Of a stretch of DNA of 64,000 nt, positions 4,831-60,411 are shown piece after piece (within the stretch, counting starts at the first letter, position 1; each line of letters begins with the position of its first letter). The notes under the pieces are model-generated. The model saw only the letters and a list, made by a program, of their open reading frames with translations. It had not been told where the DNA came from and ran no database searches. The stretch covers positions 335,234,001-335,298,000 of the forward strand of contig OZ024741.1 of the NCBI GenBank assembly GCA_964016885.1, given 5' to 3'. Made by a program: the position numbers and the translations under genes. This DNA comes from Eledone cirrhosa. Taxonomy: Eukaryota.

Positions 4831-5520
4831 AAATAATGATATCTAATTTAAGCATATGGCAGCAATTTTGGGGGAGGAGAAAGTCGTTTAAATCAACTCC
4901 AGTGTATTACTTGTACTTTATTTTATCGACCCTGTAAGGATGAAAGACAGAGCTAACCTTGGCAGGATTTAAACTTGGAATGTAAAGGGACATAACTATA
5001 TGTAGCAAAGTATGTTGTCCAACACTCTACCGATACTGCCAATCTACTGCCCTAAAATAATGATTTTTTATTTAGGTACAAGGCCAGCGATTTTAGGGGA
5101 AGGGCAAGTCGTTTAAATTGACACCAGTTCATTACTAGTATTTTATTTTATTGACCTCAGAAGGTTGAAAGGCAAAGCTGACCTTGGCAGGATTTGAACA
5201 CAAAATGTAAAGGGATGTTACTCTATGCTGCAAAGCATGCTGTCCAATACTCTAATGATACCACCAATCCACCACCCTCTAAATAATGTGTCAATCTAAA
5301 TAAGGATTTCTAATTTAGGCACAAGGCCAGCAATTTAGTGGAAGGGATAAGTCAGCTACATTGACCCCCCAGTACGTGAATGGTACTTTATTTTACTCAT
5401 CTCAGAAGGTTGAAAGGCAAGCTAATTTTGGCAGGATTTGAATTCAAATTGTAAAGTGTCTGAACAAATACTGGTATGCATTTGTCTGACCTTCTAACGA
5501 CTAACCTAATCTAAATAATA
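4831..5520 (-). mobile_element. Head-to-tail array of ~3 tRNA-derived Nin/Deu-domain-like SINEs
   Basis: Repeated units. On minus: GGTGGATTGGCAGTATCGG (A-box-like), GTTCAAATCC (B-box-like), TTTGCCTTTCATCCTT..GGGTCGATAAAATAAAGTACCAG core, then GGCCTTGTGCCTAAATTAGAAA tail. Confidence 0.8.
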
Positions 5521-15675: not shown

Positions 15676-16219
15676 TATATGTCTGTATCTATCTATCTAT
15701 CGATCTATCTCTCTCTATATATAATATAGACATTAAAATATCATTAATTTAATGATATAGGCATTATTATATAATATATTCAGTACAACACAGTATACAT
15801 GTTTAAAGTGTTTATAGTCTTGCTTTCATATTAATCTTGAAAAAGTAATTTAGATATTGAAATCACTTGAAGTCTGTAGTTTGTTGAACATCATTATCGT
15901 CCCCATCAACACAGCCACCATCATCATCATCATCATCATCATGATTATTATCATTATTTTGATACTAATATTATCATTATTATTATTATTATTATGAAAT
16001 CTTGCCATTATTTTTCAAATCATCCAAACAATAAGAACTCTTATAGTTTGAAATCGTTGCTTATGAGAAAGAGATAACATTTAAAAGATTCCATTCATTA
16101 AACTCTCTTTAACTCCATTTCTACAGTGAAATTTAAAAGAAATGCTATAAAAGTTTAAACCCTTTCATGACTGTATTTCTAATGAAACATGTTCTATGTT
16201 CTATTTCAATTAATTGATG

Positions 16220-16630
16220 GTTTCTAATTTAGGCACATTTAGGGGAGGGGAAAGTCAATTAAATCAAACCCAGTGTGTTAGTGGTACTTTATTATATCAA
16301 CCTTGGAAGATTGAAAGGCAAAGCTGACTTTGGCAGGATTTGATCTCAGGACGTAAAGAGACGTAACTATATGAAGCAAAGTATGTTGTCCGACACTCTA
16401 CCAATACTGCCAATCCTCTACCCACTAAATAATTATTTCTAATTTAGGCACAAGGCCAGCAATTTAGTGGAAGGGATAAGTCAGATACTTCAACCCCTAG
16501 TACTGAATTGTTACTTTATTTTCTCATCTCTGGAAATATGAAAAGCAAAGTTTACCTTGGTGTGATATGAGCTAGATGGAACAAATGTCACAAAATGCCT
16601 GGTGCATTAATGATACTGCCAATCCACCAC
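16220..16630 (-). mobile_element. Two tandem Nin/Deu-domain-like SINEs
   Basis: Two head-to-tail units like those at 4831-5520. Confidence 0.75.
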
Positions 16631-18742: not shown

Positions 18743-19986
18743 TTAAACCTTATTTAATGTTGGTCTATATTTTTGAATAAACATATTTTCCTTATTTATT
18801 CGCATTTGTTCTGTTGTATTGTTAGCGCAAAGGTAAAATGGGAAGACTTGGAATTTGGGTGTCTTATTACTTGCGCAAATGTCTAGATGTGCACTTAGTG
18901 GTATCTGTCTCGTGGTTGGATCTCGTAATTGTTGGCGATGAACTGTCATTCTGTTTCTGAGTGTGAGTTTAGTTTGTCCTATATAATCTTCATTGCATCC
19001 TTTACATTTAATGGCATAAATTAGATTTTTTGATGAGCAAGTGAAGTGATTTTTTACAGTAAAATTTTGTCCTGATTTAAATGTATACGTGTTGTCTTCA
19101 ATGAGGTGAGTGCAGGTTCCACAATTAGAGCAACCACATTTTTTGATACTTGATTGTGGGTTTGTGGTAGGTAATTTGGCATTGGTGAGTAATGTTTTCA
19201 GTGATTTTGGTTGTCTTTTGCTTTTGATTATTTTGTGTGTTTCAAGGGCTTTTTTCATTCTTGGGTTTTGTTTTAGTAGTGGGATGTTATTGTGAATAGT
19301 GTTGTAAGCTTCCACATTTCTTGGGTTGTGTGTTGAGATATATGATAGAATATTGGACGTACCTTGAATTTGTTTCTGTTTCCGTAATTCATCAATGCCT
19401 ATTGCTTTAGCCCTTTCTATTCCATTATTTATTAGTAATAGTGGGTACTCTCTCTCAAGTAGAATTTCCTTTAATTCTTGAAGTCTTTTATTTCGCGTTT
19501 CATAATTGGAGACAATTGTGCAAATTCTTCTTGCTAGGTTAAAAGGAATGTTCGTCTTCGTGTGCTTTGGATGGTTGGAGGTGAATAGCAGATATTGTTT
19601 GGAATTTGTTGGTTTGTAGTGTATGTCAGTTTCGATATTTGTGTCTTTTTTTGTGATTAAGATGTCCAGAAATGGGAGTTGATCTTGGCTGTATTCCATT
19701 GTGAATTGGATGTGGTTATTGATGCCGTTTATTAAGTTTTTGAAATCCTTCAGTTGGTCGAGTGTGTGGGACCAAAGAATGAGGCAATCATCCAAGTAGC
19801 GTTTCCAATTCTCCGATAAATATTTGTGGAAGTTCAATCCGTATTTTGATTTGAACTGTTCATATATCTGGACTTCTAAGTATGCCATGACTAAGTTGGC
19901 ATAAGTTGGAGCGGCTTTTGTGCCCATCGCAGTCCCCGATATTTGCTTGTAAGTATTGCCATCGAAATCAAAAAAGTGGTTCTGTA
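18743..19986 (-). CDS. PLE reverse transcriptase C-terminal half plus GIY-YIG endonuclease (5'-truncated, uninterrupted frame)
   Basis: NHFFDFDGNTYKQISGTAMGTKAAPTYANL, WKRYLDD, LPFLDI, HYKPT, Cys linker KKCGCSNCGTC, NLIYAIKCKGCNEDYIGQT, RMTVHR, KENMFIQKYRPTLN. Confidence 0.9.
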
Positions 19987-20133
19987 GGCGCGAAATTTAT
20001 TATAATTATTGACAAACCAATCAAATTACTTCTCGAAAAACCTGGCTTTCAAGCCACTTTTTCCATATAAAACAAGTAACATTTAGAGACCAACCAGATG
20101 TGAGAAAAACCACAGACCCTCCATCTCAACTCA

Positions 20134-32167: not shown

Positions 32168-32890
32168 TACACCATTTCACATTAGACCTTATTACTCTCC
32201 TCACATTGGTTGTTATATATATATACACCATTTCAGTCATTAGACCTTACTACTTCCCTCACACTGGTTGTTAGATACACACCATTTCAGCCATTAGAAC
32301 TTACTACTCTCTTCACATTGGTTGTGATATACACACCATTTCAGTCATTAGAACCTACTACTCCCCACACCTTGGTTGTTATATACACACCATTTCAACT
32401 ATTAGAACCTACTACTCTCCTCCCCTTGGTTGTTACATACACACTGTTTCAGTCATTTGAACCTACTACTCTCCTCCCCTTGGTTGTTACATACACACTG
32501 TTTCAGGCATTAGACCCTACTACTCTCCTCCCCTTGGTTGTTACATACACACTGTTTCAGTCATTTGAACCTACTACTCTCCTGACCTTGGTTGTTAGAT
32601 ACACACTGTTTCAGTCATTAGACCCTACTACTTTCCTCACCTTGGTTGTTATATATACACCATTTCAGTCATTAGAACCTACTACTCTCCTCACCTTGGT
32701 TATATATATACAATGTTTCAGTTATTAGACCCTACTACTCTCCTCACTTTGGTTGTTATATACACACTGTTTCAGTCATTAGAACCTACTACTCTCCTCA
32801 CTTTGGTTGTTATATACACACAATTTCAGTCATTAGACCCTACTACTCTCCTCACCTTGGTTGTTATATATACACTGTTTCAGCCATTGG
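32167..32890. repeat. 54-bp minisatellite, ~13 units
   Basis: Unit ACACCATTTCAGTCATTAGAACCTACTACTCTCCTCACCTTGGTTGTTATATAT. A partial unit at ~31778-31810 lies on the other side of the SINE. Confidence 0.92.
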
Positions 32891-36339: not shown

Positions 36340-36710
36340 AATGGCAGTGGATTTTCAGTAATCAGTAGAGTATCCTAAAAAATGTTTTGCAGTATATAGT
36401 TACATCCCTTTACATCCTGCGTTCAAATTCTGCCAATGTCAGCTTTGCCTTTTTTCCTCACGGGTTCAATAAAATAAAGCAACAGCATTGCACTGGGGTC
36501 AGTTTAATCAACTTTCTCCTTCCTCGAAACTTTTGTCCTTGTGCCTAAATCAGAAAACATTCAGCACAGTTACGTCCCTTTACGGACTGAGTTCAAATCG
36601 CGCCGAGGTTAACTTTGCCTTTCATCCTTACGGGGTCGATAAAATAAAGTACCAGTAATACACTGGGATAATTGCTGTCCTTGAGCCAAAAGTAGAAACA
36701 ATTATTTAGT
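36340..36710 (+). mobile_element. Two tandem Nin/Deu-domain-like SINEs
   Basis: Two co-oriented units, the second lacking its head. A single copy lies at ~37530-37760. Confidence 0.75.
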
Positions 36711-39656: not shown

Positions 39657-40075
39657 GAGTGGTAGATTGGTAGTATATGCTCTGTGGCATATAGTTAAGG
39701 CCATTTACGCTCTGAGTTCAAATCTTGCTGAGGTTAGCTTTGCCTTTCATCCTTACGGGGTTGATAAAATAGAGTACCAGTAACACACTGAGTTCAATTA
39801 CATCAGATTTCCCCTCTCCCCCAAAATTGTTGGCTTTGTGTCTAAATCAGGAGCCATTTATTTAAGGCAGTGGATTGGTAGAGATTTGGACACCATGCTT
39901 CATGGCATATAGTTATGACCCTTTACTTTCTCAGTTCAAATCCCACTGAAGTTAGCTTTGCCTTTTCTCGTTAAGGGATCAATAAAATAGAGAACCAATA
40001 ATACACTGCAGGCAATTTAATTGACTTTCTCATTCGCCCAAATTGTTGGCCTTGTGCCTAAATCAGAAACTAATA
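39657..40075 (+). mobile_element. Two tandem Nin/Deu-domain-like SINEs
   Basis: Head-to-tail units. Confidence 0.75.
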
Positions 40076-45869: not shown

Positions 45870-48800
45870 ATGACCATGCTGTAAAAGGGAGGGGTAGAGA
45901 GGGCCCATGAGTCCAGTAAGACATCCTCTCTAGTGCTGGTGGCACAAATAAAAGCACCCTGTCCATGCTGTAAAGTGACACTGGTGTTAGAAAGGGCATC
46001 CAACCAGTGTATCAATGTCAAAAGAATTATGAGCACAGCAACAAATATATAGGACGAACAAAAATATGAAAACATCGCATCTCAGAGTTGTAACACTTAA
46101 TGTTGGCCCTCTCACAGGTAGATCTGGTGAAATAGTCGAGATGCTGGAGACAAGGCATGTGGATGTGTGCTGCGTGCAAAAAGTGAGATGGAGAGGTGCT
46201 TCTGCAAGACTAGTCGCAGGCAAACATCTTAGCTATAAGCTTTTCTGGGTAGGTAAGGATGATGGGTTAGGGGGAGTAGGCATTTTCCTTGCTGAGAGAT
46301 GGATCAATAAGACAATAGAGGTAGTTCGAGTTAATAATCGAATAATTAAGCTTAGATTAGTTGTAGGCAGGAGACTACTGACAATTATCTCTGCCTATCC
46401 TCCCCAAGTAGGCCTAGGCAAAGAAGAGAAAGACTGCTTTTACGAGAAACTTTTACAAACAGCCGCAATGACAGAGGACAGAGACATCGTTATGCTAGCA
46501 GGAGACTTCAATGGTCATGTTGGACAGCTCCAGGATGGTTACATGGGGTACATGGTGGTCACGGTTACGGCTTAAGAAATGAAGAAGGAATGAGACTTCT
46601 TGAATTTTGTGATGCAAGTACACTGACTATTTACAACACTAACTTCCAGACACCTGCCAACCACCTAATTACCTACAAATCAGGCGAGCACATAAGCCAG
46701 ATTGACTTCTTACTAGTTAGGCAGCAGGACAGGCAGATGGTATCAAATACCAAGGCATACCCTGGGGAAGAATGTACCCTACAGCATAGGTTAGTCATTA
46801 GTGATATCTCAGTAAGCAAGAAATGGAATGAGACATACAGGAAGGTGTGGAGAAGAAAGGTCTGGAAGCTAAAAGACCTTTCACTAAAATACAAATTTAG
46901 GAAAGCCCTTCAAGATGTGTATGACGAAAAAGAAGACGATTTAGAGTCATATGACATAGATAATAACTGGAATTTCTTACGTGACAACTTACTGCAGGCT
47001 ACTGATGAAACTTGTGGCTGGAGCAGAGCTCCAACCAACAGCGAGTGACCTGGTGGTGGAACATCACAGTAGATAGGGCAATTAGTGACAAAAGACTAGC
47101 ATGGAAGGCTTGGAAAAAGGGTGGGAGTAGAGAAGGATATACAGCCGCTAAGAGAGAAGCTAGACGTCAGGTGTACTTAGCACACAGGGAGGCTGAGAGT
47201 AGGAGGTTTGCCAATGTTCTACGACGGGAAGATCAGAGGCATGAGGTGTTCCACATTGCAAGGTAGTGTGTCAATGCAAATCAGGATGTTGTTGGAGATA
47301 AGTGTGTCCAGAATGATGCCGGTATACTTAGTGTCATGAATGATCAGAAAAAGGAGGCCTGGAAATGTCATTATGAGAGACTGATGAATGTGGAGAATGA
47401 ATGGGAGAGAGAGAAATTACCCTCAGTAGATCCAACAGAGGGACCAGCTATTGAGATTGATGAATATAGGGTCCAAGAGGCGATTAGGGAAATGAAAAAT
47501 GGTAAGGATGCTGGACCGTCGGGGATAGTTGCTGAGATGCTGAAGGCACCAGGGGACGTAGGCACTAAACTGGTTGCATGCATCATCAATCAGGCTATAT
47601 ATGGTGGTGTCATACCCAAAGACTGGTGCAGCAGTATTCTCATAAATTGCTACACAGGTAAAGGGGATGCTCTGGGGAGGAGCAATTATAGAGGTATAAA
47701 ACTGATGGATCAGGTTATGAAAGTGGCAGAAAGGATATTAGCGCAACTAATTAGAGAAAGGGTCAAACTAGATGAGATGCAGTTTGGTTTTGTGCCTAGG
47801 AAAAGTACAACAGATGCCCTCTTCTTGGTGAGACAATTACAAGAGAGGTTCTTAGAGAAGAATAAGCCACTATACTTAGCCTTTGTTGACCTAGAGAAGG
47901 CCTTTGATAGGGTACCACAATCTGTCATCTGGAGGTCCCTAAGGAAACTAGGTGTTGAGGAATGGCTTGTGAGGACAGTGCAAACTTTGTACAGTGGTGC
48001 TGTCAGTAAAGTCAGGGTAGGAATGGAGTTTAGTGAGGAATTCCAGATACAAGTAGGAGTACATCAAGGTTCGGTCCTCAGCCCGCTCTTGTTCATTATA
48101 GTACTCCAAACCATAACAGAGGAGTTTAAGACTGGCTGTCCATGGGAACTTCTCTATGCTGACGATCTGGTTCTTATAGCAGAATCAGTAGAGGAGCTAG
48201 AGAATAAATTCTGGCTATGGAAACAGCAGTTGGAAGCAAGAGGACTGAGAGTGAACCTAGCTAAGAACAAAGTGTTGATGAGTAGAAAAGAGGACAAAGC
48301 TCTGATTCCATCAGGGAAATTGCCATGTTCGATATGCAGAAAAGGAACTGGCATAAATTCTATAAAATGCACACAATGCAGATCCTGGGTACACAAGAGA
48401 TGTAGCAGGATAGCAGGCAAACTAACAGGTAGGGAGAAATACGTATGCAGTAGATGTACAAGGAAATTAGACAGTAGAAGTCGCATTGATAGACACATTT
48501 TTCAAATGCAGGCAGGTGCTATAGAAGTGGTTGATAGCTTCCGGTACTTAGGAGATCAGATTAGCATGGGAGAGGAGGGTGTTCCGAGGCCATAGTATCT
48601 AGAATAAGGACGGGTTGGAAGAAGTTTAGGGAGCTGCTTTCTCTGCTGACGAAGAAGGGTTTCTCCCTGCGTACGAAAGGCCGGTTATATGATGCCTGTG
48701 TGAGGAGTGTGATGCTGCATGGTAGTGAGACATGGGCAGCAACTGCAGAGGATATGCGACAGCTGGAGAGAAATGAGGTAAGCATGCTCCATTGGATGTG

Positions 48801-49155
48801 CAATGTCAATCTGCATGAACGACCCAGCATGGATGTGTTGAGAGAGAAACTGTGTCTGAGAGGGATACAATGTAGTGTGCGAGAGAAGAGACTGCGGTGG
48901 TATGGACATGTAATGCACATGGAGGATGACCGATGGGTGAAGAAGTGCCAGGAAATGCCAGTTGAAGGAAGACATAGTAGAGGTAGACCACGAAAAAAAA
49001 TGGGCGGAGGTGGTGAGAACAGACCTCAGATCGCTGAAGCCCACGGTGGAGATGACGAAGGACTGTGACAAGTGGAGAGATGCTGTGCTGAATAAGACCC
49101 ATCCCACCCTTGCAAGCAGGGAAAAGCAGACGTAAAATGATGATGATGATGATGA

Positions 49156-52994: not shown

Positions 52995-53740
52995 ATGGTT
53001 TCTTATATAGGCACATGGCCAGTAATTCGAAGGGAAGGGGAATGTCGATTAAATATCTCCCCCAGTGCATTACTGGTACTTTATTTTATCAACCCCATAA
53101 GGATGAAAGACAAAGCTAATATCGGCGGGCTTTGAACTCAGAACGTAAAGGGCCGTAACTAAAGCATGGTGTTCAATGCTTTATCAGTACTGCCAAATAG
53201 TAATAATAACAATAATGATAATAATCGTTTCTAATTTTGGCACAAGAGAAGCAATTAAGAGTACTTTATTTTATCAACCCCCAAAATGATGAAAGGCAAA
53301 GTTGACCTCAGTGGGATTTGAACTCAGAATATAAAGAGTCAAAATAAATACTGCTAAGCATTTGTCAGATTTTCTAACAACTTTGCCTCACACCAATAAT
53401 AGTGATAATTTCTAATATAGGACAAGGCCAGCAATGATAAAGGGCAAAATTGACCTCAGTGAGATTTGAACTCAGATTGTAAATAATCATAATGAAAGCT
53501 GCAATAAATAACAATAATAATAATAATAATAAAGGTTTCTGATTTAGGCACAAGGCCAGCAATTTGTGGGAAAGGGAAAGTCTATTAAATCGACCGACCC
53601 CAGTACATTACTGGTACTGTATTTTAACAACCCCATAAGGATGAGAGGCACAGCTAACCTCGGCTAAACTCAGAACATAAAGGGACGTAACTATATACCG
53701 AAAAGCATGTCTAACACTCTACCGATACCGCCACCCTTAT
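52995..53740 (-). mobile_element. Head-to-tail array of Nin/Deu-domain-like SINEs downstream of the Tx1-like LINE
   Basis: About 4 co-oriented units separated by (AAT)n. Confidence 0.8.
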
Positions 53741-54009
53741 AATAATAATAATAATAATGCTTTCAATATTAACCACAAGGGTTGACACAAAGTAGACATT
53801 AAGGACAGTACAGGACAATACAGGACGGTACAAATGGGCATTTCTGCATATAAAAAAAAAAACAGGATGTAACAAAAAAAAGGAACAATGAAAAATTCCC
53901 CAATAAGGGGGAGACTTCCGAGGGCCATCGTGGTGAAAGCCCATTAAAAAAAGCCACAGTAACCCTTACCACCAGGGCAAGTGCCCTCTCCCAGTTTTCC
54001 ACCTTCAAT

Positions 54010-57000
54010 TTACAGGCACATACTCAGAGTAGGTCCATTCACTCGGGCCATTCTTGCCTCTCTCACAAATCTTTCAACAAAATGCTGGGAAGAGAGCACT
54101 TCCCTCTCTACCCTGATTTTCCTTTTCAAATGAAATTTGAAAAAGTTAATCAGAGCATCACTGAAGAGGTAAGTGCTCGTCTTCAGCCCTTTCAGATGCG
54201 TCCACCATACTATCTCTTTCGCCATGGCCACCAGACAGATAAAAAAGCCTGCCCTTCCCGGCTAAAGGAAGAGAGCGAAGCAATCCTCACGATGGACTCA
54301 GCTGATAGCCGGATCTGTTCTACATGCAACAGCAGGTGTTCGACATAAACCCACAAGTTGGCAATGCTCGGACACTGAACGAGTGGGTGCAGGACGGTTT
54401 CGTTGCCCTGCGCACATCTCGGACATGCCCGGCTGACGGCACTTCCATGCTTGTAGAGTTTATCCCGAACTGGCAAAGCTCCTTGGTAGCACTGCCAGGC
54501 CAGGGATTTCTGGAAGTTGTCCATAGGTCCCGGCCCAGAAGTTCTTCCGAAGAGATTGGCTAGTTGATTTTCGTTGACGCCTAGAGTTTCCCCAAGTACG
54601 TCGTCGCTGTTCCCCTCCACTAATCCTCTATAGAATGCCAAGGTGGAGTTTCCACTGATCACATTGCCTGACTGGTCGAGGGCTGTGAGCACCTAAAGAC
54701 ATTCCAGTCTCCAAGCGCTCCCTCTCGGTCTTCGCTTGACCCAGGACTGCAGCTCCATCAAGGAGACGAGCTGGGGAAAGACGCGTCTAGCAAACCGCGA
54801 CCACACCTGATCACCGTCGAGGAAGAGGTGGAGATGTCGTAGCCTGAGCGCGTGTCTGCGCATCATCAGCCACAGCATGCCCAGCCCTCCACGTAGCGGG
54901 TGTTGACAGCAGATGGACCGCCTGACCATCGGAGTGCGTCCCTTCCTCAAAAAGCGAAAGAGCAAACGATCCAGTGCAGTCAGGCGAGGCTTAGTACGCA
55001 TTCGCCACCTCCGCTCAACCTTTCAGGGATAGCTTCCTCTCCGCCCATTTCTGGGTGAGAGAAGCCACCCTGCTCGTCACCTTGTCCCAGTTTTTGTCCG
55101 TCTGGATGTCTGGACCGAACCAGACTCCTAGCAATTTAACCGGTTCGTTCGTCCAGCGCCCGATGACGATGTTGGATGGCATGAACCTGCCTCTCCAGGT
55201 GCCGAGCTGCAGGCCGATTGACTTTTCCTGGTTGATCATTGCTCCTGTCACCGCTTCGTATTCTCTTAGTGTAGTGCCGATTGCTTTGATATGTTTGGCA
55301 TTCGACACTACTACGTTGACATCATCCGCATATGCTGACATGGATCTTCTGCATCCTAGTCCAGTTTGTGCAGTACAAGAGGGATGAAAGGGGTCATCCT
55401 TGGCGGACCAAACGCATGATGTTGAACGGTTCCGAAAGGTGACCATTCACTCTCACCACAGAGCATATGTCACTGCGCATGGCAGCGATCCAGCCTCTGA
55501 AGACGAGCCCAAAGCCAGCCGCCCTCAGGACTGCCGCCAGATAACGATGGTTGATCTTATCGAAAGCTTTCGACTGATCTAAATTGATCAAGGACCCACC
55601 CATGCCAGGTTCCCTAGCTACCCTCTCTACGATGTATCGCATGAGGTGGAGCTTGTCATGGATGGATCTGTCTGGAATGGCACATGTCTGCGCCTCTCCC
55701 ACCAGACCAACAATGACAAGCGCCAACCTCTTTGCTACCACCTTGGCCAAAATCTTGAACTCTGTGTTTAGCAGAGTTATGGGCCTGAAATTATCTATGT
55801 TATCCCCCTTGTTCAGATCTTTTCTCAGCAGCGCAACCGCTCCTCGGCTCACAGAGCTGAGAATTCTCCCGTTCTGTTGCCAGTTGCAGTAGACGTCCGC
55901 CAAGAGGCCTCCAAACAAGTCTGGCATCTGTACGTAAAGTTCATAGAGCAGACCATCCAAACTAGGCGATTTACCCCTTGTGCAGCCAGTCATTGCCTCC
56001 TGTACTTCAGCTGCTGTTATCGGATTTTCGCAACACTCCCTCAGTGACCGAGAGCCGCGGCAGTCCATCGAGGTAGGCACTAAAGTCCATCCCTCGATCC
56101 GGCCCACCGCTGCCCCCGAACAGCTGAGCGAAGTGTCGCTGAAAAGCTTCACAAATTTGCCCGGGATCGAGTAGCATGCGCCTGTCGTGGTCCACCAAAG
56201 ACCGGATCGGGGCTTTGTTGCTACGACGTGCTTCCGCCACTCGGCCCATTGAATGGCTTTCGTCCTCTTGTGTCTGAGAGCACGCACTCTAGCTCTGACA
56301 ACGCAGCCTTCGTGCTTTGCATTGAAGAACTGCTCAAAGGCCAATTTCGCTGCAAACGTCGATCGCGATGCCTTTGCTAAGCGCCTCGTCTAATTTTCTA
56401 TCTAGTTCTCCCTCTGCTCTATTTTTCTCTATTCCTAAAGCCTTACTACACCTAATGGACTCTATTCTAATCGCTCTTTTCAGAGCAAACCACCATTTGT
56501 TGTTGACGATGGCCCTCGTCAACGCTCGCTTAACTAGTTCGCTAATCCGGTCTCTGTAGGCCTTGTGCGCTGTTAATGACGCATTTAGCTTCCAGTAGCC
56601 AGGTCCCTGTCTATGAAGCCTATCTAAGTCAACCACACAGATCACAAATTTGTGGTCCGTGTAGCTGACTATCTTGAATTGTGAACAGCCTATGCAAGAC
56701 CTATCTATTTCCCTACAAAATACTCTATCTAGATATGATCTGGATGAGCCGACGCGGTTTGTCCAAGTCCACATTGGCACATTCGGGAAATCCAATCAGT
56801 ACCTGTCTGACAGTTGAAAACACCTGAGTAGGTTTGTGAGGCATTTACACCCTCCTCCCCTATCCGCTAATCCCACACAATCCCAGCGTGCATCTAAGAT
56901 CCTGTTCCAGTCGCCCACTAACACTAGAGAGCGGAACGTTCCAAGAAAGGTCTCCAGACGCCGGAAGAATTCAGGCCGTCCTGCTCCTGTTGGGGCATAG

Positions 57001-57344
57001 GCAGCCACTAGCCTGAAAGCTTGTCTTTCTCCGCTGGTCACGTCCAGTACCACAAACTTACCCTCTGGGTCCAAGAAGACGGCCCGTATCTCGACATCCA
57101 GACATCTGGCCGGAACAACACGGCCATTCCCCCCGCCCTCCACCCCCGATCCGGGACGGCTTGGAGATGTGTACACCTCGTAGCCGCCGAAAATGGGTGA
57201 GAATGTCCGTGCCTCGGAGATTCTGGTCTCGCTGATGGCCGCCACATCTATGTTTAGCAACCTGAGATCGTTCACCATGTGGCCCTGCTTCCAGGACGAC
57301 CCCAGGCCACGTACATTTATGCTACCTATTTTGAGATAAGCCAT
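54010..57344 (-). pseudogene. Tx1/L1-type ORF2 (APE, RT, C-terminal zinc finger), disrupted
   Basis: IGSINVRGL, ISETR, LVGDWN, SYLDRVF, YTDHK, GPGYWKLNAS, FRPITLLNTEFKILAKV, LDQSKAFDKINH, VRQG, SAYADD, KLLGVWF, GGLGM, CPRC..ETVLHPLVQC. Confidence 0.9.
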
Positions 57345-57399
57345 GTTGGCTAGGATAGGAGGAAAACAAGTGAGAGGGAGGAGGTATAAAAAATTACCT

Positions 57400-59005
57400 G
57401 TGGCTCTTCTTTAGGAAGGGGGTGGGTGATCCATCCTTCCGACCAGTGGTGGGTTTCTCCATGAAAATATCCGTGAATATTCTTTTGGTGATGTTCCCTC
57501 GGTAGTCTCCAATTTATGTGGGGAACATTTTTTTTAATGTTATGTAATTTTTTTGTGTAATTTCTATTATTTTTATGCGTGTGGGGGGTGCAATTTTGGT
57601 AGTTTGTTTCTGTGATGTTGGTGTGGTGTTGAATGTAATTTAAAAGCTTTGTGTTGTCTGTGTCTATGGCTGTGTATTGTATCTGCTGTTTGGGTGTTGG
57701 TGCTTTCTGTGTTTGCTGTCGTGTTGTTGGAGGTGACGATGGGGTAGATGCTAAGAGTGGCAGTGATGGTGATGGCGGTGGTGGTGGTGGTGTTGGTAGT
57801 GGTGGTAGGTGATGGTGTAGGTGGTTGTGGGGTGTGTGGCTGTTGATGGTGGTGGGGTAGATTTCATTTTCTTTTCTTTAGGGTTCTTTCTTCCTCTTTT
57901 TTTTGGGGGGGGGGGGAGTAGGGAGTTCTTCCTTTTTTTTTGTTGGAATAGTCCTCCACTCTTCGGCCTCATTGCACTCCTTGTCCGATTTAGCTATATC
58001 AGGAAGGGGTATGCTTTCCATTGGTTCTCTGGGTGGTGGAAGAGATGGTGCTTTTGTTGTTGGGGATGATGATTTCTCTTCTGCCACTGTGGTCTTTGTT
58101 TGTTTGTCTGCTCCAGTTGCGGGGCACGGCGTGGGGAGAAGGGGTGGGCGCGTGCCTGTTTTGGTAAGTTTGGGGCAGAATGCCTTAAGGTGCGTCTTGT
58201 CACCGCATCCATGACACCTTGACCGCCTACCTTCGACAGTCACGGGTAGATGGCTGCCGTCGTCGAGGTCTATTACATTGAGGATGGCCTCAATGCTCTC
58301 ATGGTTTGCTAGGATGATTAGCTCCATCCCCGACCCTGTCCAATTTTCCTGTCTTATTCGCATGACGTTGAGTATGGTTGTTGAATCCTCAACGTCAGCG
58401 AGGACGGCTGCCGTCAACCAAGCCATCTCCACTGAGGGTGGAACCTGGCCCACTTAAACCCTCACGACTCTCTGGCCGCAGTATGTGGGCATCATTATGA
58501 TTTCGTCACTGCGGAGTGGCGCAATGTAGTGTGCTCTGGCTTCTTCTGGTGTAGCGAAGAGCAAATCCACAGTGCCATATCTCGATCCCCGGGCTATATA
58601 TGTTTCCTGTGCCTAGATGGTGCCCATAGCTCTTTGTACCTGTGACTCCATTGCCCATTCAACTCGCCTGGATTTTGATCCGATCGTGCGATAACTGACC
58701 GAACACAAAAGCTTGTTTCGTATTATCTCAGATGGGCGAGTGATACTTACTCTGTGTCCGGTCTTTTTAACCAAGACCTTTGCTTGTTTTATCTCTTCGT
58801 TAGTGATGTGTACTTGTTCAAAATTATTTGTCGTTTTAGCGAAAGCCGTGTTTGTTTTGATTTGTGTTGACTCATCACTAGTTTCGTCTTTGTTGCCGTC
58901 GTTAGTATTTTTGTTTGTTTTATTTTCCTCTGTGTTGCTGCTGTTATAGTTGTTGTTCTTTGGGTTCTTTATGGCTGTTGCTGTTGTTATTGTTGTTATT
59001 GGGGT
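57400..59005 (-). pseudogene. Tx1/L1-type ORF1 with CCHC zinc knuckle, disrupted
   Basis: VTVEGRRSRCHGCGDKTHLKAFC (CX2CX4HX4C), followed by a Pro/Lys-rich tail. In-frame stops join ORFs 58613..59086 and 57878..58453. Confidence 0.75.
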
Positions 59006-59008
59006 GGT

Positions 59009-59630
59009 GATGTCTAATATAGATACAAGGCAGGCAGTTTTGGTGGGAAAAAAGTTGACTAAATTAACCTTGGTTTTGCTTTTCATCTTTTCAGGGTCAA
59101 TTAAATTAAATATTTTCTTTCATCGACCCTGGAAGTACAAGAGGCAAAATTGACCTTGTTCAGACTTGAACTCAGAATGTAAATGGCCATAATGAAAAAC
59201 TGCAAAGAATAACAAAAATAATAATAATTGTTTCTACTTTAGGCACAAGACCAGAAATTACCCAGTGCATTACTGGTACTTTATTTTATCGACCCCATAA
59301 GGATGAAAGGCAAAGTCAACCTCGGCGGGATTTGAACTCAGATCGTAAAGGGACGTAACTATGCTGGAAAGCATGGCGTCCGACTCTCTACCGATACTGC
59401 CAATAATAATGGTTTCTACTTTGGGCACAAGGCCAACATTTTTTGGGAGAGGCAAGTCGATTAAATCAACCTCAGTGTGTTTCTGATACTTTGTTTTATT
59501 GACCCAGTAAGGATGAAAGGCAAAGCTCACCTTGGTGGGATTTGAACTCAGAACGTAAAGGGCCATAACTCTATGCCGCTAAGCATGTTATCCGACGCTA
59601 TACCAATTCTGCCAATCCACCACCCTTCAA
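59009..59630 (-). mobile_element. Head-to-tail array of ~3 Nin/Deu-domain-like SINEs upstream of the Tx1-like LINE
   Basis: Co-oriented units separated by (AAT)n. A copy in the opposite orientation lies at ~59850-60065. Confidence 0.8.
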
Positions 59631-59631
59631 A

Positions 59632-59718
59632 AATAATAATAATAAAGATGTCTTTTAATGACAACAAGGGTGCAAGACATTGGGGACAATACAAGGACGA
59701 AAAATAGGGTTTACAATT
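59632..59718 (-). mobile_element. Short 3' stub of a Tx1-like LINE
   Basis: Minus GTCCTTGTATTGTCCCCAATGTCTTGCACCCTTGTTGTC...(ATT)n resembles the 3'UTR at 53740-53830 (GTCCTGTATTGTCC..AATGTCT..ACCCTTGTGG). Confidence 0.55.
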
Positions 59719-60411
59719 CATCATCATCATCATCATTGTTTAACATCTATCTTCCACGCTAGCATGGGTTAGACTAATTATGATTATATTTTTTTTAATT
59801 CTTTTGCTAGCATAGGATGAATATGTTGGCATTACAGTATTCATCCAAGGGCTGTGGATTGACAGTAATCAGTAGAGCATCAGAGAACATGGTTTGTGGC
59901 ATATAGTTATGTCCCTTTACATTCTGAGTTCAAACTCTGCTGAGGTTAGCTTTGTCTTTCATCTTGATAGGGGTCGGTAAAATAAAGTACCAGTAACAAT
60001 AATCGATATTTGACTTTCCCCCTTCCTTCAAATTGCAGGCCTTGTATCAAATATAGTAACAATTATAGTATTTGTCCAAGAATCGTGATTTGGTATTACC
60101 TCATTTCAGATTTGTCTCCTGTTTCTAAATTTGACACATGTACTTCATTGAAAATCTACATTAAACTACTAACTCATGGCACATTTTTAACCCAGCATGC
60201 CTCATCCATTCATATTGAATATCCATTTTCCTTCTTCTTCTTCTTCTTCTTCTTCTTCTTCTCCTTCCCCAAATAGATTTCATATCCAACTGTTTGTGAA
60301 TCTAAACTTTTCACAGGAATTAACATTGTACATTCTATGGAACATAAAACAATTGCTGTCTGTTTTACTGATACCTACAGCTAACTTCTCTGTTGGATCT
60401 ACTGGGAATAT

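What the first reader, a model, noticed from the sequence alone, without database searches (positions are those of the whole stretch)
52995..59718. Tx1-like LINE embedded in a co-oriented SINE array: candidate target-specific LINE/SINE system that builds tandem arrays
Seen: the LINE lies between SINE units, all on the minus strand. A SINE tail abuts its 5' end, and its (ATT)n 3' end runs into a SINE head. A second LINE 3' stub (59632-59718) sits in the same context. The same SINE forms head-to-tail arrays at 4.8, 16.2, 36.3 and 39.7 kb. Known: many Tx1-group APE endonucleases are sequence-specific, including for microsatellites and small-RNA genes. Inference: this endonuclease targets the (ATT)n or tail-head junction, so each insertion recreates the target and SINEs and LINEs pile up in polarised arrays. 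I cannot tell whether this is already described.
Basis: partly seen in the sequence, partly recalled or inferred. Interest (0 to 1): 0.75.

Follow-up and report, generated by a model that had tools for sequence, protein, structure and literature searches.

The report
ATT-seeking LINE stacks with its SINE
In this likely octopus genome a long jumping gene and a very common short one sit at ATT repeats in one fixed direction and end in the same small predicted RNA hairpin, so the long one's enzyme likely copies both and each insertion would leave a fresh landing site for the next; similar repeat-seeking pairs are known in other animals.

Summary
The window's LINE (53759-59010, minus) is a decayed, 5'-truncated copy of an APE-RT-zinc-finger family. 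Of 70 LINE 3' ends taken in position order, 16 run into a co-oriented SINE (1 opposite; 0.3 expected), 17 into another co-oriented family member and 15 into antisense R4/Dong-like elements. Generic ATT tracts carry a SINE about as often (12 of 88, p=0.15). SINE target-site duplications (26 of 86) start ATTAT, median 17 bp. Adjacent SINEs are never each other's best match (0 of 32), so arrays grow by serial insertion, not duplication. SINE and LINE share a CUUGU-loop hairpin with compensatory stems. A young sister subfamily has open ORF2 frames, and 27 of 28 copies follow at least six ATT units. It works like Kibi/Koshi and Tx1-Mar/SINEU. Nine literature searches found no ATT-targeting Tx1; Repbase was not available. 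This scan has noted the same system repeatedly elsewhere in this genome. Enzyme specificity and Tx1-clade membership are untested.

The parts
52997..53196 (-). SINE unit, near full length
   Evidence: nhmmer, profile positions 4-209
53227..53387 (-). SINE unit, decayed
53435..53503 (-). SINE fragment
53534..53738 (-). SINE unit whose head follows the LINE tail
53741..53758 (-). (ATT)6 tract between LINE end and SINE head
   Evidence: sequence
53759..59010 (-). Tx1-like LINE, old subfamily, about 410 bp missing at the 5' end; 87-89% to full-length copies
54019..57335 (-). ORF2 remains (APE, RT, zinc finger) in five frame pieces
   Evidence: tblastn with an intact sister ORF2; RVT_1 and zf-RVT
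57878..59010 (-). ORF1 remains with a CCHC knuckle
   Evidence: ORF translations; similarity to ORF1 of sister families judged by eye
59010..59210 (-). decayed, 5'-truncated SINE joined to the LINE 5' break without an ATT run
59230..59404 (-). SINE unit, young short form (94% to family majority)
59411..59628 (-). SINE unit, full length, with A- and B-box-like motifs
59632..59716 (-). 3' stub and ATT tail of another Tx1-like subfamily
59719..59775 (-). 3' end of an unrelated (GAT)n-tailed repeat upstream of the stub
4840..5500 (-). three-unit SINE array
16219..16625 (-). two-unit SINE array
36350..36698 (+). two-unit SINE array
39660..40070 (+). two-unit SINE array

Best explanation
This is a decayed copy of an L1/Tx1-group LINE family whose members, like an abundant tRNA-type SINE, sit at ATTAT(T)/(ATT)n sites in one fixed orientation, and whose ORF2 protein likely inserts both. 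Inferred steps: ORF2p binds a 3' hairpin (CUUGU loop) shared by LINE and SINE RNA; it nicks the AAT strand at the start of an ATT run; the RNA's (AUU)n tail pairs with the freed end and primes reverse transcription; a second nick about 17 bp downstream gives a duplication that begins with ATTAT. Shown: the site stands on both sides of a SINE insertion, and both elements end in ATT. So each insertion leaves two usable sites, and later SINEs and LINEs stack head to tail there. The SINE is a passenger and a supplier of targets, not the thing recognised. R4/Dong-like elements occupy the same tracts from the other strand.
For: Of 70 position-ordered LINE 3' ends: 16 co-oriented SINE vs 1 opposite, 17 co-oriented Tx1-like vs 1, 15 antisense R4-like, 20 unrecognised; 0.31 SINE expected at random. 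23 of 51 truncated 5' junctions have an ATT triple within 25 nt upstream, 2 the reverse, background 1.1%. 27 of 28 young intact copies follow at least 6 ATT units, the other follows 3. SINE TSDs: 26 of 86 in blind loci (shuffled pairs 0-4), 10-21 bp, median 17, all starting ATTAT-like; in 6 of 26 the upstream copy directly follows another SINE's end, judged by eye. Both orders occur: a LINE stub whose TSD includes the next SINE's first bases (L053), and SINE TSDs that start at a LINE end (L009, L018, L108). Neighbours 78% identical vs 84% dispersed and 79% for array members at other loci. Hairpin pairs hold in 97-98% of 319 ends at three positions, with C-G/G-C and A-T/G-C swaps between families. 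Controls: 0 of 18 GAT-tailed element ends, 0 of 66 GAT and 0 of 228 GT tracts are followed by a SINE head. APE catalytic motifs are intact in the young ORF2.
Against: The automatic TSD finder was near noise for LINEs (8 of 67, shuffles 1-6); only a few LINE TSDs are individually clear (L053, L128, L165, L039 by eye), and pure-ATT duplications cannot be scored. The window's own 5' junction has no ATT and no TSD. Primary-sequence similarity of SINE and window-LINE tails is weak (p 0.09 and 0.011; 0.002-0.004 for another subfamily), so the partner may be a sister subfamily. The 319 hairpins are dominated by two families, giving only 3-4 independent stem types. SINE ends are about 5% of short ATTAT sites (59 of 1108) but about 23% of TSD-bearing insertions start at one, so the short motif alone does not explain the whole excess. 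Some LINE-only arrays include near-identical units or duplicated flanks, so duplication contributes there. No enzyme test.
Confidence: 0.8

Rival explanations
1. The bias comes mainly from pairing of the (AUU)n RNA tail with nicked AAT DNA, with an endonuclease of only loose A/T preference.
For: Both RNAs end in ATT; SINE adjacency rises from 34 of 1117 short sites to 9 of 68 tracts of 3-4 units. Tail-target pairing is known for L1 (recalled).
Against: SINE TSDs begin sharply at the first ATT after a mostly pyrimidine base (19 of 26), and young LINEs show 5' runs clustered at 6-8 units, which fits a positioned nick. Target choice is said to be set mainly by the endonuclease (PMC4494074, passage).
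Confidence: 0.3
2. The enzyme recognises the SINE tail-head junction itself (a SINE-targeting LINE).
For: 16 of 70 LINE tails precede a SINE; 5 of 21 full-length old 5' ends follow a SINE; SINE ends are over-represented among TSD starts.
Against: Not above generic ATT tracts (p=0.15); only 3 of 28 young copies precede and 1 follows a SINE; downstream SINEs start at many different positions, so there is no fixed site.
Confidence: 0.07
3. Chains are made in single events by template jumping: cDNA ending in the element's ATT-like 5' leader primes on the (AUU)n tail of a second RNA.
For: The old subfamily carries a conserved ATT/GTT-rich 5' leader; young-young junctions are short (median 10 units vs 16 terminal) and some tandem units differ by 0-12 bases in 6 kb.
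Against: Short junctions also fit an 18-21 bp duplication at the start of an older tail; SINE neighbours differ in age and have flank-derived TSDs between them; one LINE array has units 45-68 bases apart.
Confidence: 0.12
4. SINE arrays arise by tandem duplication or unequal crossing-over.
For: Duplicated flanks in two LINE-only arrays (A234, A55).
Against: 0 of 32 adjacent SINEs are best matches; window neighbours are 63-80% identical.
Confidence: 0.03

Closest known systems
Kibi (TC)n, Koshi (TTC)n and crocodilian (TTCC)n/(TTTC)n Tx1 families (PMC4494074, passages; Kojima and Fujiwara 2004 not read)
   Same: APE-type L1/Tx1-group LINE with microsatellite preference; passes that paper's criterion of more than 20% of flanks
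   Different: Target is ATT, also short ATTAT sites; mollusc host; tracts shared with antisense R4/Dong-like elements; kinship to Kibi/Koshi not tested
Tx1-Mar with SINEU (PMC4494074, passages and sections 14 and 16 read)
   Same: SINE and Tx1 share a target; tandem SINE copies sandwich a TSD and are read as sequential insertions
   Different: Target there is a Mariner transposon; here the SINE is tRNA-type, shares a 3' hairpin with the LINE, and its own tail is a target
L1/Alu tandem insertion into A-tails (El-Sawy and Deininger 2005: title seen in a reference list, content recalled)
   Same: Tail equals target, so later copies land in earlier tails in the same orientation
   Different: ATT unit instead of poly(A); hairpin-type 3' end rather than relaxed poly(A) recognition
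Maize/sorghum L1 lineage with stringent 3' hairpin SINEs (PMC3747384, passage)
   Same: L1-clade LINE and SINE share a hairpin with conserved loop and compensatory stems
   Different: Plant lineage; no target preference stated in the passage seen
Octopus 'L1-Tx1', 'Dong-R4' and 'tRNA-Deu' repeat classes (PMC13282606, parts 1-2 of 3 read; PMC8967140, passages)
   Same: These classes are abundant in octopus; L1-Tx1 and Dong-R4 are listed as recently active
   Different: The text seen gives no targets, partners or arrays; supplements and libraries not seen

Membership tests
L1 group non-LTR retrotransposon | ORF2 with APE, RT and C-terminal zinc finger | tested here: met
   RVT_1 and zf-RVT in window pieces; APE of the young sister matches L1 endonuclease structures, E 6e-6 to 2e-5; homologue P0003 is closer to L1 ORF2p (5e-68) than to R2 (8e-21)
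Tx1 clade | RT phylogeny groups with named Tx1 references | tested here: inconclusive
   Quick tree of 63 rows places the window RT with the young subfamily (98) and an Argonauta protein (100), apart from RTE- and R4-like rows, but holds no named Tx1 or L1 reference
Tx1 clade | ORF1 with CCHC zinc knuckle (feature recalled, from no call) | tested here: met
   CX2CX4HX4C in the ORF at 57878-58453 and in sister ORF1s
Target-specific non-LTR element (PMC4494074 criterion) | One sequence type in more than 20% of flanks | tested here: met
   28 of 28 young copies follow an ATT run; 23 of 51 truncated junctions
Target-specific non-LTR element | Endonuclease cleaves the target selectively | not testable with these tools
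   Needs an in vitro nicking assay
tRNA-derived SINE | Short, non-coding, A/B boxes, TSDs, simple-repeat end | tested here: met
   About 210 bp; A- and B-box-like motifs in 2 of 4 window units tested, A only in 1, none in 1; TSDs; ARAGORN finds no tRNA gene
Nin/Deu-domain SINE | Conserved central Nin domain | not tested
   Resemblance recalled only; no reference sequence was available
SINE-LINE partner pair | Shared 3' end and shared target | tested here: met
   Hairpin and terminal motif; ATTAT-starting TSDs and orientation
SINE-LINE partner pair | Mobilisation in trans | not testable with these tools
   Needs a reporter assay
SINE-derived satellite | Neighbouring units more alike than dispersed ones | tested here: not met
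   0 of 32
R4/Dong clade (antisense neighbours X, W) | RT followed by CCHC and a restriction-like endonuclease; clade placement | tested here: inconclusive
   Motifs read by eye in translations; the clade name is recalled and no named reference was compared

The most novel reading that the evidence does not exclude
The ORF2 protein does more than revisit a motif: the element's ATT-like 5' leader lets finished cDNA jump onto the (AUU)n tail of the next LINE or SINE RNA, so polarised chains are written in single events and a self-renewing microsatellite is used by two unrelated enzyme types from opposite strands.
Probability: 0.12. Interest if true: 0.7.

Novelty: new member of a known kind. Interest (0 to 1): 0.45.

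Why it matters
It names a likely motor and target for a SINE with roughly 450,000 copies here (extrapolated from 88 in 590 kb) and explains why octopus-type genomes hold polarised SINE/LINE stacks and many ATT tracts. More than 60 of 150 scored copies have an open ORF2 frame of about 1200 codons, so an in vitro test of how an APE domain reads a trinucleotide repeat, and of hairpin-dependent SINE capture by an animal Tx1-like LINE, is feasible. The principle (microsatellite-targeting Tx1, SINE sharing the target, serial stacking at a TSD) is already in print for fish and crocodilians.

Tried and rejected
No genome-wide count of LINE-end-plus-SINE-head junctions was obtained; proportions rest on samples (70 of 2361 exact 3' motifs, the first by position on contig C1; 59 blind 10-kb loci at round coordinates, a 60th did not exist). 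Laying two contig sets and two RAD-seq runs on a young LINE-SINE locus (L259) showed no empty allele among the rows shown, and the ATT junctions were skipped as repeats: uninformative. The protein atlas gave no result. Three homologue searches gave no protein named Tx1. The careful tree did not finish; the quick tree is used. Automatic LINE TSD calling was near noise. Age polarity in SINE pairs was even (18 vs 18), so arrays do not grow from one end. A fixed LINE insertion site inside the SINE, as notes on another genome suggest, was not seen here. Pfam missed the window's APE and ORF1 pieces. Tx1-1_ACar targets telomeric repeats, not ATT (PMC5537684, PMC10088271, passages).
Full report
Setting. 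The window lies on contig C2 of a 3.0-Gb genome. Octopod origin is inferred from the only named close homologue, an Argonauta protein at 74% over the RT region, and from the repeat types.

Observation. The LINE spans 53759-59010, is 87-89% identical to full-length copies, lacks about 410 bp at the 5' end and has ORF2 in five frame pieces. Its (ATT)6 tail runs into a SINE head. The upstream SINE joins without an ATT run or TSD. The stub at 59632-59718 belongs to another subfamily and follows a (GAT)n-tailed repeat.

Flanks of the LINE family. One exact 26-letter 3' motif occurs 2361 times. I took the first 70 places by position (C1). Directly behind the tail lie 16 co-oriented SINEs and 1 opposite, 14 full-length heads of other Tx1-like subfamilies plus 3 truncated co-oriented copies and 1 opposite, 15 antisense 3' ends of RLE-type elements, and 20 unrecognised flanks. 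A stricter first rule gave 12 co-oriented SINEs and 1 opposite. Random expectation for a SINE is 0.31 of 70. Upstream, 23 of 51 truncated junctions (from the 70 plus 28 BLAST-picked copies; 47 of these 98 had no junction within the locus) have an ATT triple within 25 nt, 2 the reverse, background 1.1%. Of 30 best 5' matches, 21 had a full 5' end: 5 follow a SINE, 4 another Tx1-like tail, 9 an ATT run and 3 other DNA.

Young subfamily. A protein search scored 150 of 28,622 candidates; more than 60 lie in open frames of 1195-1204 codons. I fetched 28 such copies on C1 and four arrays. They are about 99% alike. All 28 follow an ATT run, 27 of them at least six units. Downstream are 3 SINEs, 8 Tx1-like heads, 6 antisense R4-like ends and 11 unrecognised flanks. 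In two copies an older subfamily's tail is followed by exactly six ATT units and then the young head, which fits an 18-bp duplication at the start of that tail.

Is the SINE the target? In 59 blind loci (590 kb), 12 of 88 ATT tracts are followed by a co-oriented SINE and none by an opposite one. This does not differ from LINE tails (p=0.15). GAT, CTT and GT tracts and 18 GAT-tailed element ends show no SINE head. SINEs behind LINE tails start at many positions. The target is therefore ATT DNA. LINE tails do carry more R4-like (15 of 70 vs 4 of 88) and Tx1-like neighbours (17 of 70 vs 0 of 88) than generic tracts. Tract length and local density were not matched, so this excess is unexplained.

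SINE insertion sites. 88 tail-bearing SINEs lie in the blind loci, 28 in arrays; 16 adjacent pairs are co-oriented and 3 opposite, against 0.75 and 0.68 by permutation. TSDs were found for 26 of 86 scorable copies (shuffled pairs 0-4), 10-21 bp, median 17, all beginning ATTAT-like; the register was set on that motif, so the letter table is partly circular. A stricter run on all loci gave 19 of 139. Most lie in unique DNA, so a short motif suffices for the SINE. In 6 of 26 the upstream copy directly follows another SINE, and L141, L191 and L209 show the same flank-derived TSD between successive units, which is direct evidence of repeated use of one site. LINE TSDs were near noise by machine (8 of 67 vs 1-6), but L053 shows a LINE stub inserted into an existing SINE-SINE joint, and L009, L018 and L108 show SINE TSDs starting at a LINE end.

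Duplication test. 32 adjacent pairs have median identity 78%, dispersed pairs 84%, array members at different loci 79%; the neighbour is never the best match. LINE-only arrays are mixed, with some near-identical units and duplicated flanks.

Partnership. A search anchored only on the loop and the terminal motif returned 319 ends; the first three stem positions pair in 97-98%, with different stems in SINE, window LINE and other subfamilies. Two families dominate the count. Linear similarity is significant for another subfamily (p 0.002-0.004), weaker for the window LINE (0.09, 0.011) and absent for R4-like and RTE-like ends. An earlier scan note (e1-9802332) pointed to the hairpin; the counts are mine.

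Mechanism. Shown: polarity, ATT context, ATTAT-starting TSDs, reuse of sites, no tandem duplication of SINEs, shared hairpin pattern, intact APE motifs. Inferred from target-primed reverse transcription as known for L1 (recalled): an AAT-strand nick, priming on the (AUU)n tail and a second nick about 17 bp on. Untested: enzyme specificity and mobilisation in trans. The share of endonuclease versus tail pairing in target choice is open.

Known systems. PMC4494074 (passages, sections 14 and 16) describes microsatellite-specific Tx1 families, a SINE sharing a Tx1 target, and tandem SINEs sandwiching a TSD by sequential insertion. PMC13282606 (parts 1-2 of 3) lists L1-Tx1 and Dong-R4 as recently active in Octopus vulgaris without target analysis; its supplement and library were not seen and may bear on novelty. 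Passages were also seen in PMC8967140, PMC4758252, PMC5804259, PMC4640811, PMC3747384, PMC5537684, PMC10088271 and PMC12840619. Searches found no ATT-targeting Tx1 or this pair; Repbase and Kojima and Fujiwara 2004 were not available. Tx1-clade membership is likely but not shown, since the quick tree lacks named references. The names Nin/Deu and R4/Dong are recalled labels. This scan has reported the same system many times in this genome; those are unreviewed notes, not support.

Verdict. Real, genome-wide and well supported: a new member of a known kind with an apparently undescribed target. This locus is a decayed, ordinary example of it. Interest 0.45.

Noticed in passing
G000:C1 234.59-234.63 Mb (L220-L223), 179.62 Mb, 55.42 Mb, 178.63 Mb: Head-to-tail arrays of 2-5 young intact LINEs; some units near-identical (0-12 mismatches in 6 kb), others as different as dispersed copies; two arrays also repeat a flank, suggesting unequal crossing-over on top of serial insertion.
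   Followed up: partly
L233 vs L155/L159: The young subfamily shares ORF2 and 3' end with the window's subfamily (about 90%) but has a different 5' UTR and ORF1; at least five further 5' heads occur behind LINE tails.
   Followed up: partly
L062-L089, L151-L170: Full-length copies of the old subfamily start with a conserved ATT/GTT-rich leader that mimics the target.
   Followed up: partly
L234, L240, L242, L243, L256 upstream flanks: The same repeat ending in (TTC)n precedes the ATT run in five young copies, possibly the 5' end of an antisense R4-like element.
   Followed up: no
window 59856-60059 (+): Solitary SINE with a 19-bp TSD, opposite to the array 240 bp away.
   Followed up: yes
window 18743-19996 (-): Penelope-like ORF with RT and GIY-YIG, open for 417 codons.
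   Followed up: no
window 46033-49150 (+): RTE-like LINE with a PHD-type finger behind RT and a (GAT)n tail.
   Followed up: partly
blind loci, e.g. L141:5904-6369: A related SINE with the same head and core but another 3' end (34 hits); only 1 of 34 has the ATTAT motif upstream, and it also forms short co-oriented arrays.
   Followed up: partly
window 32186-32728: Tandem repeat of about 60 bp.
   Followed up: no
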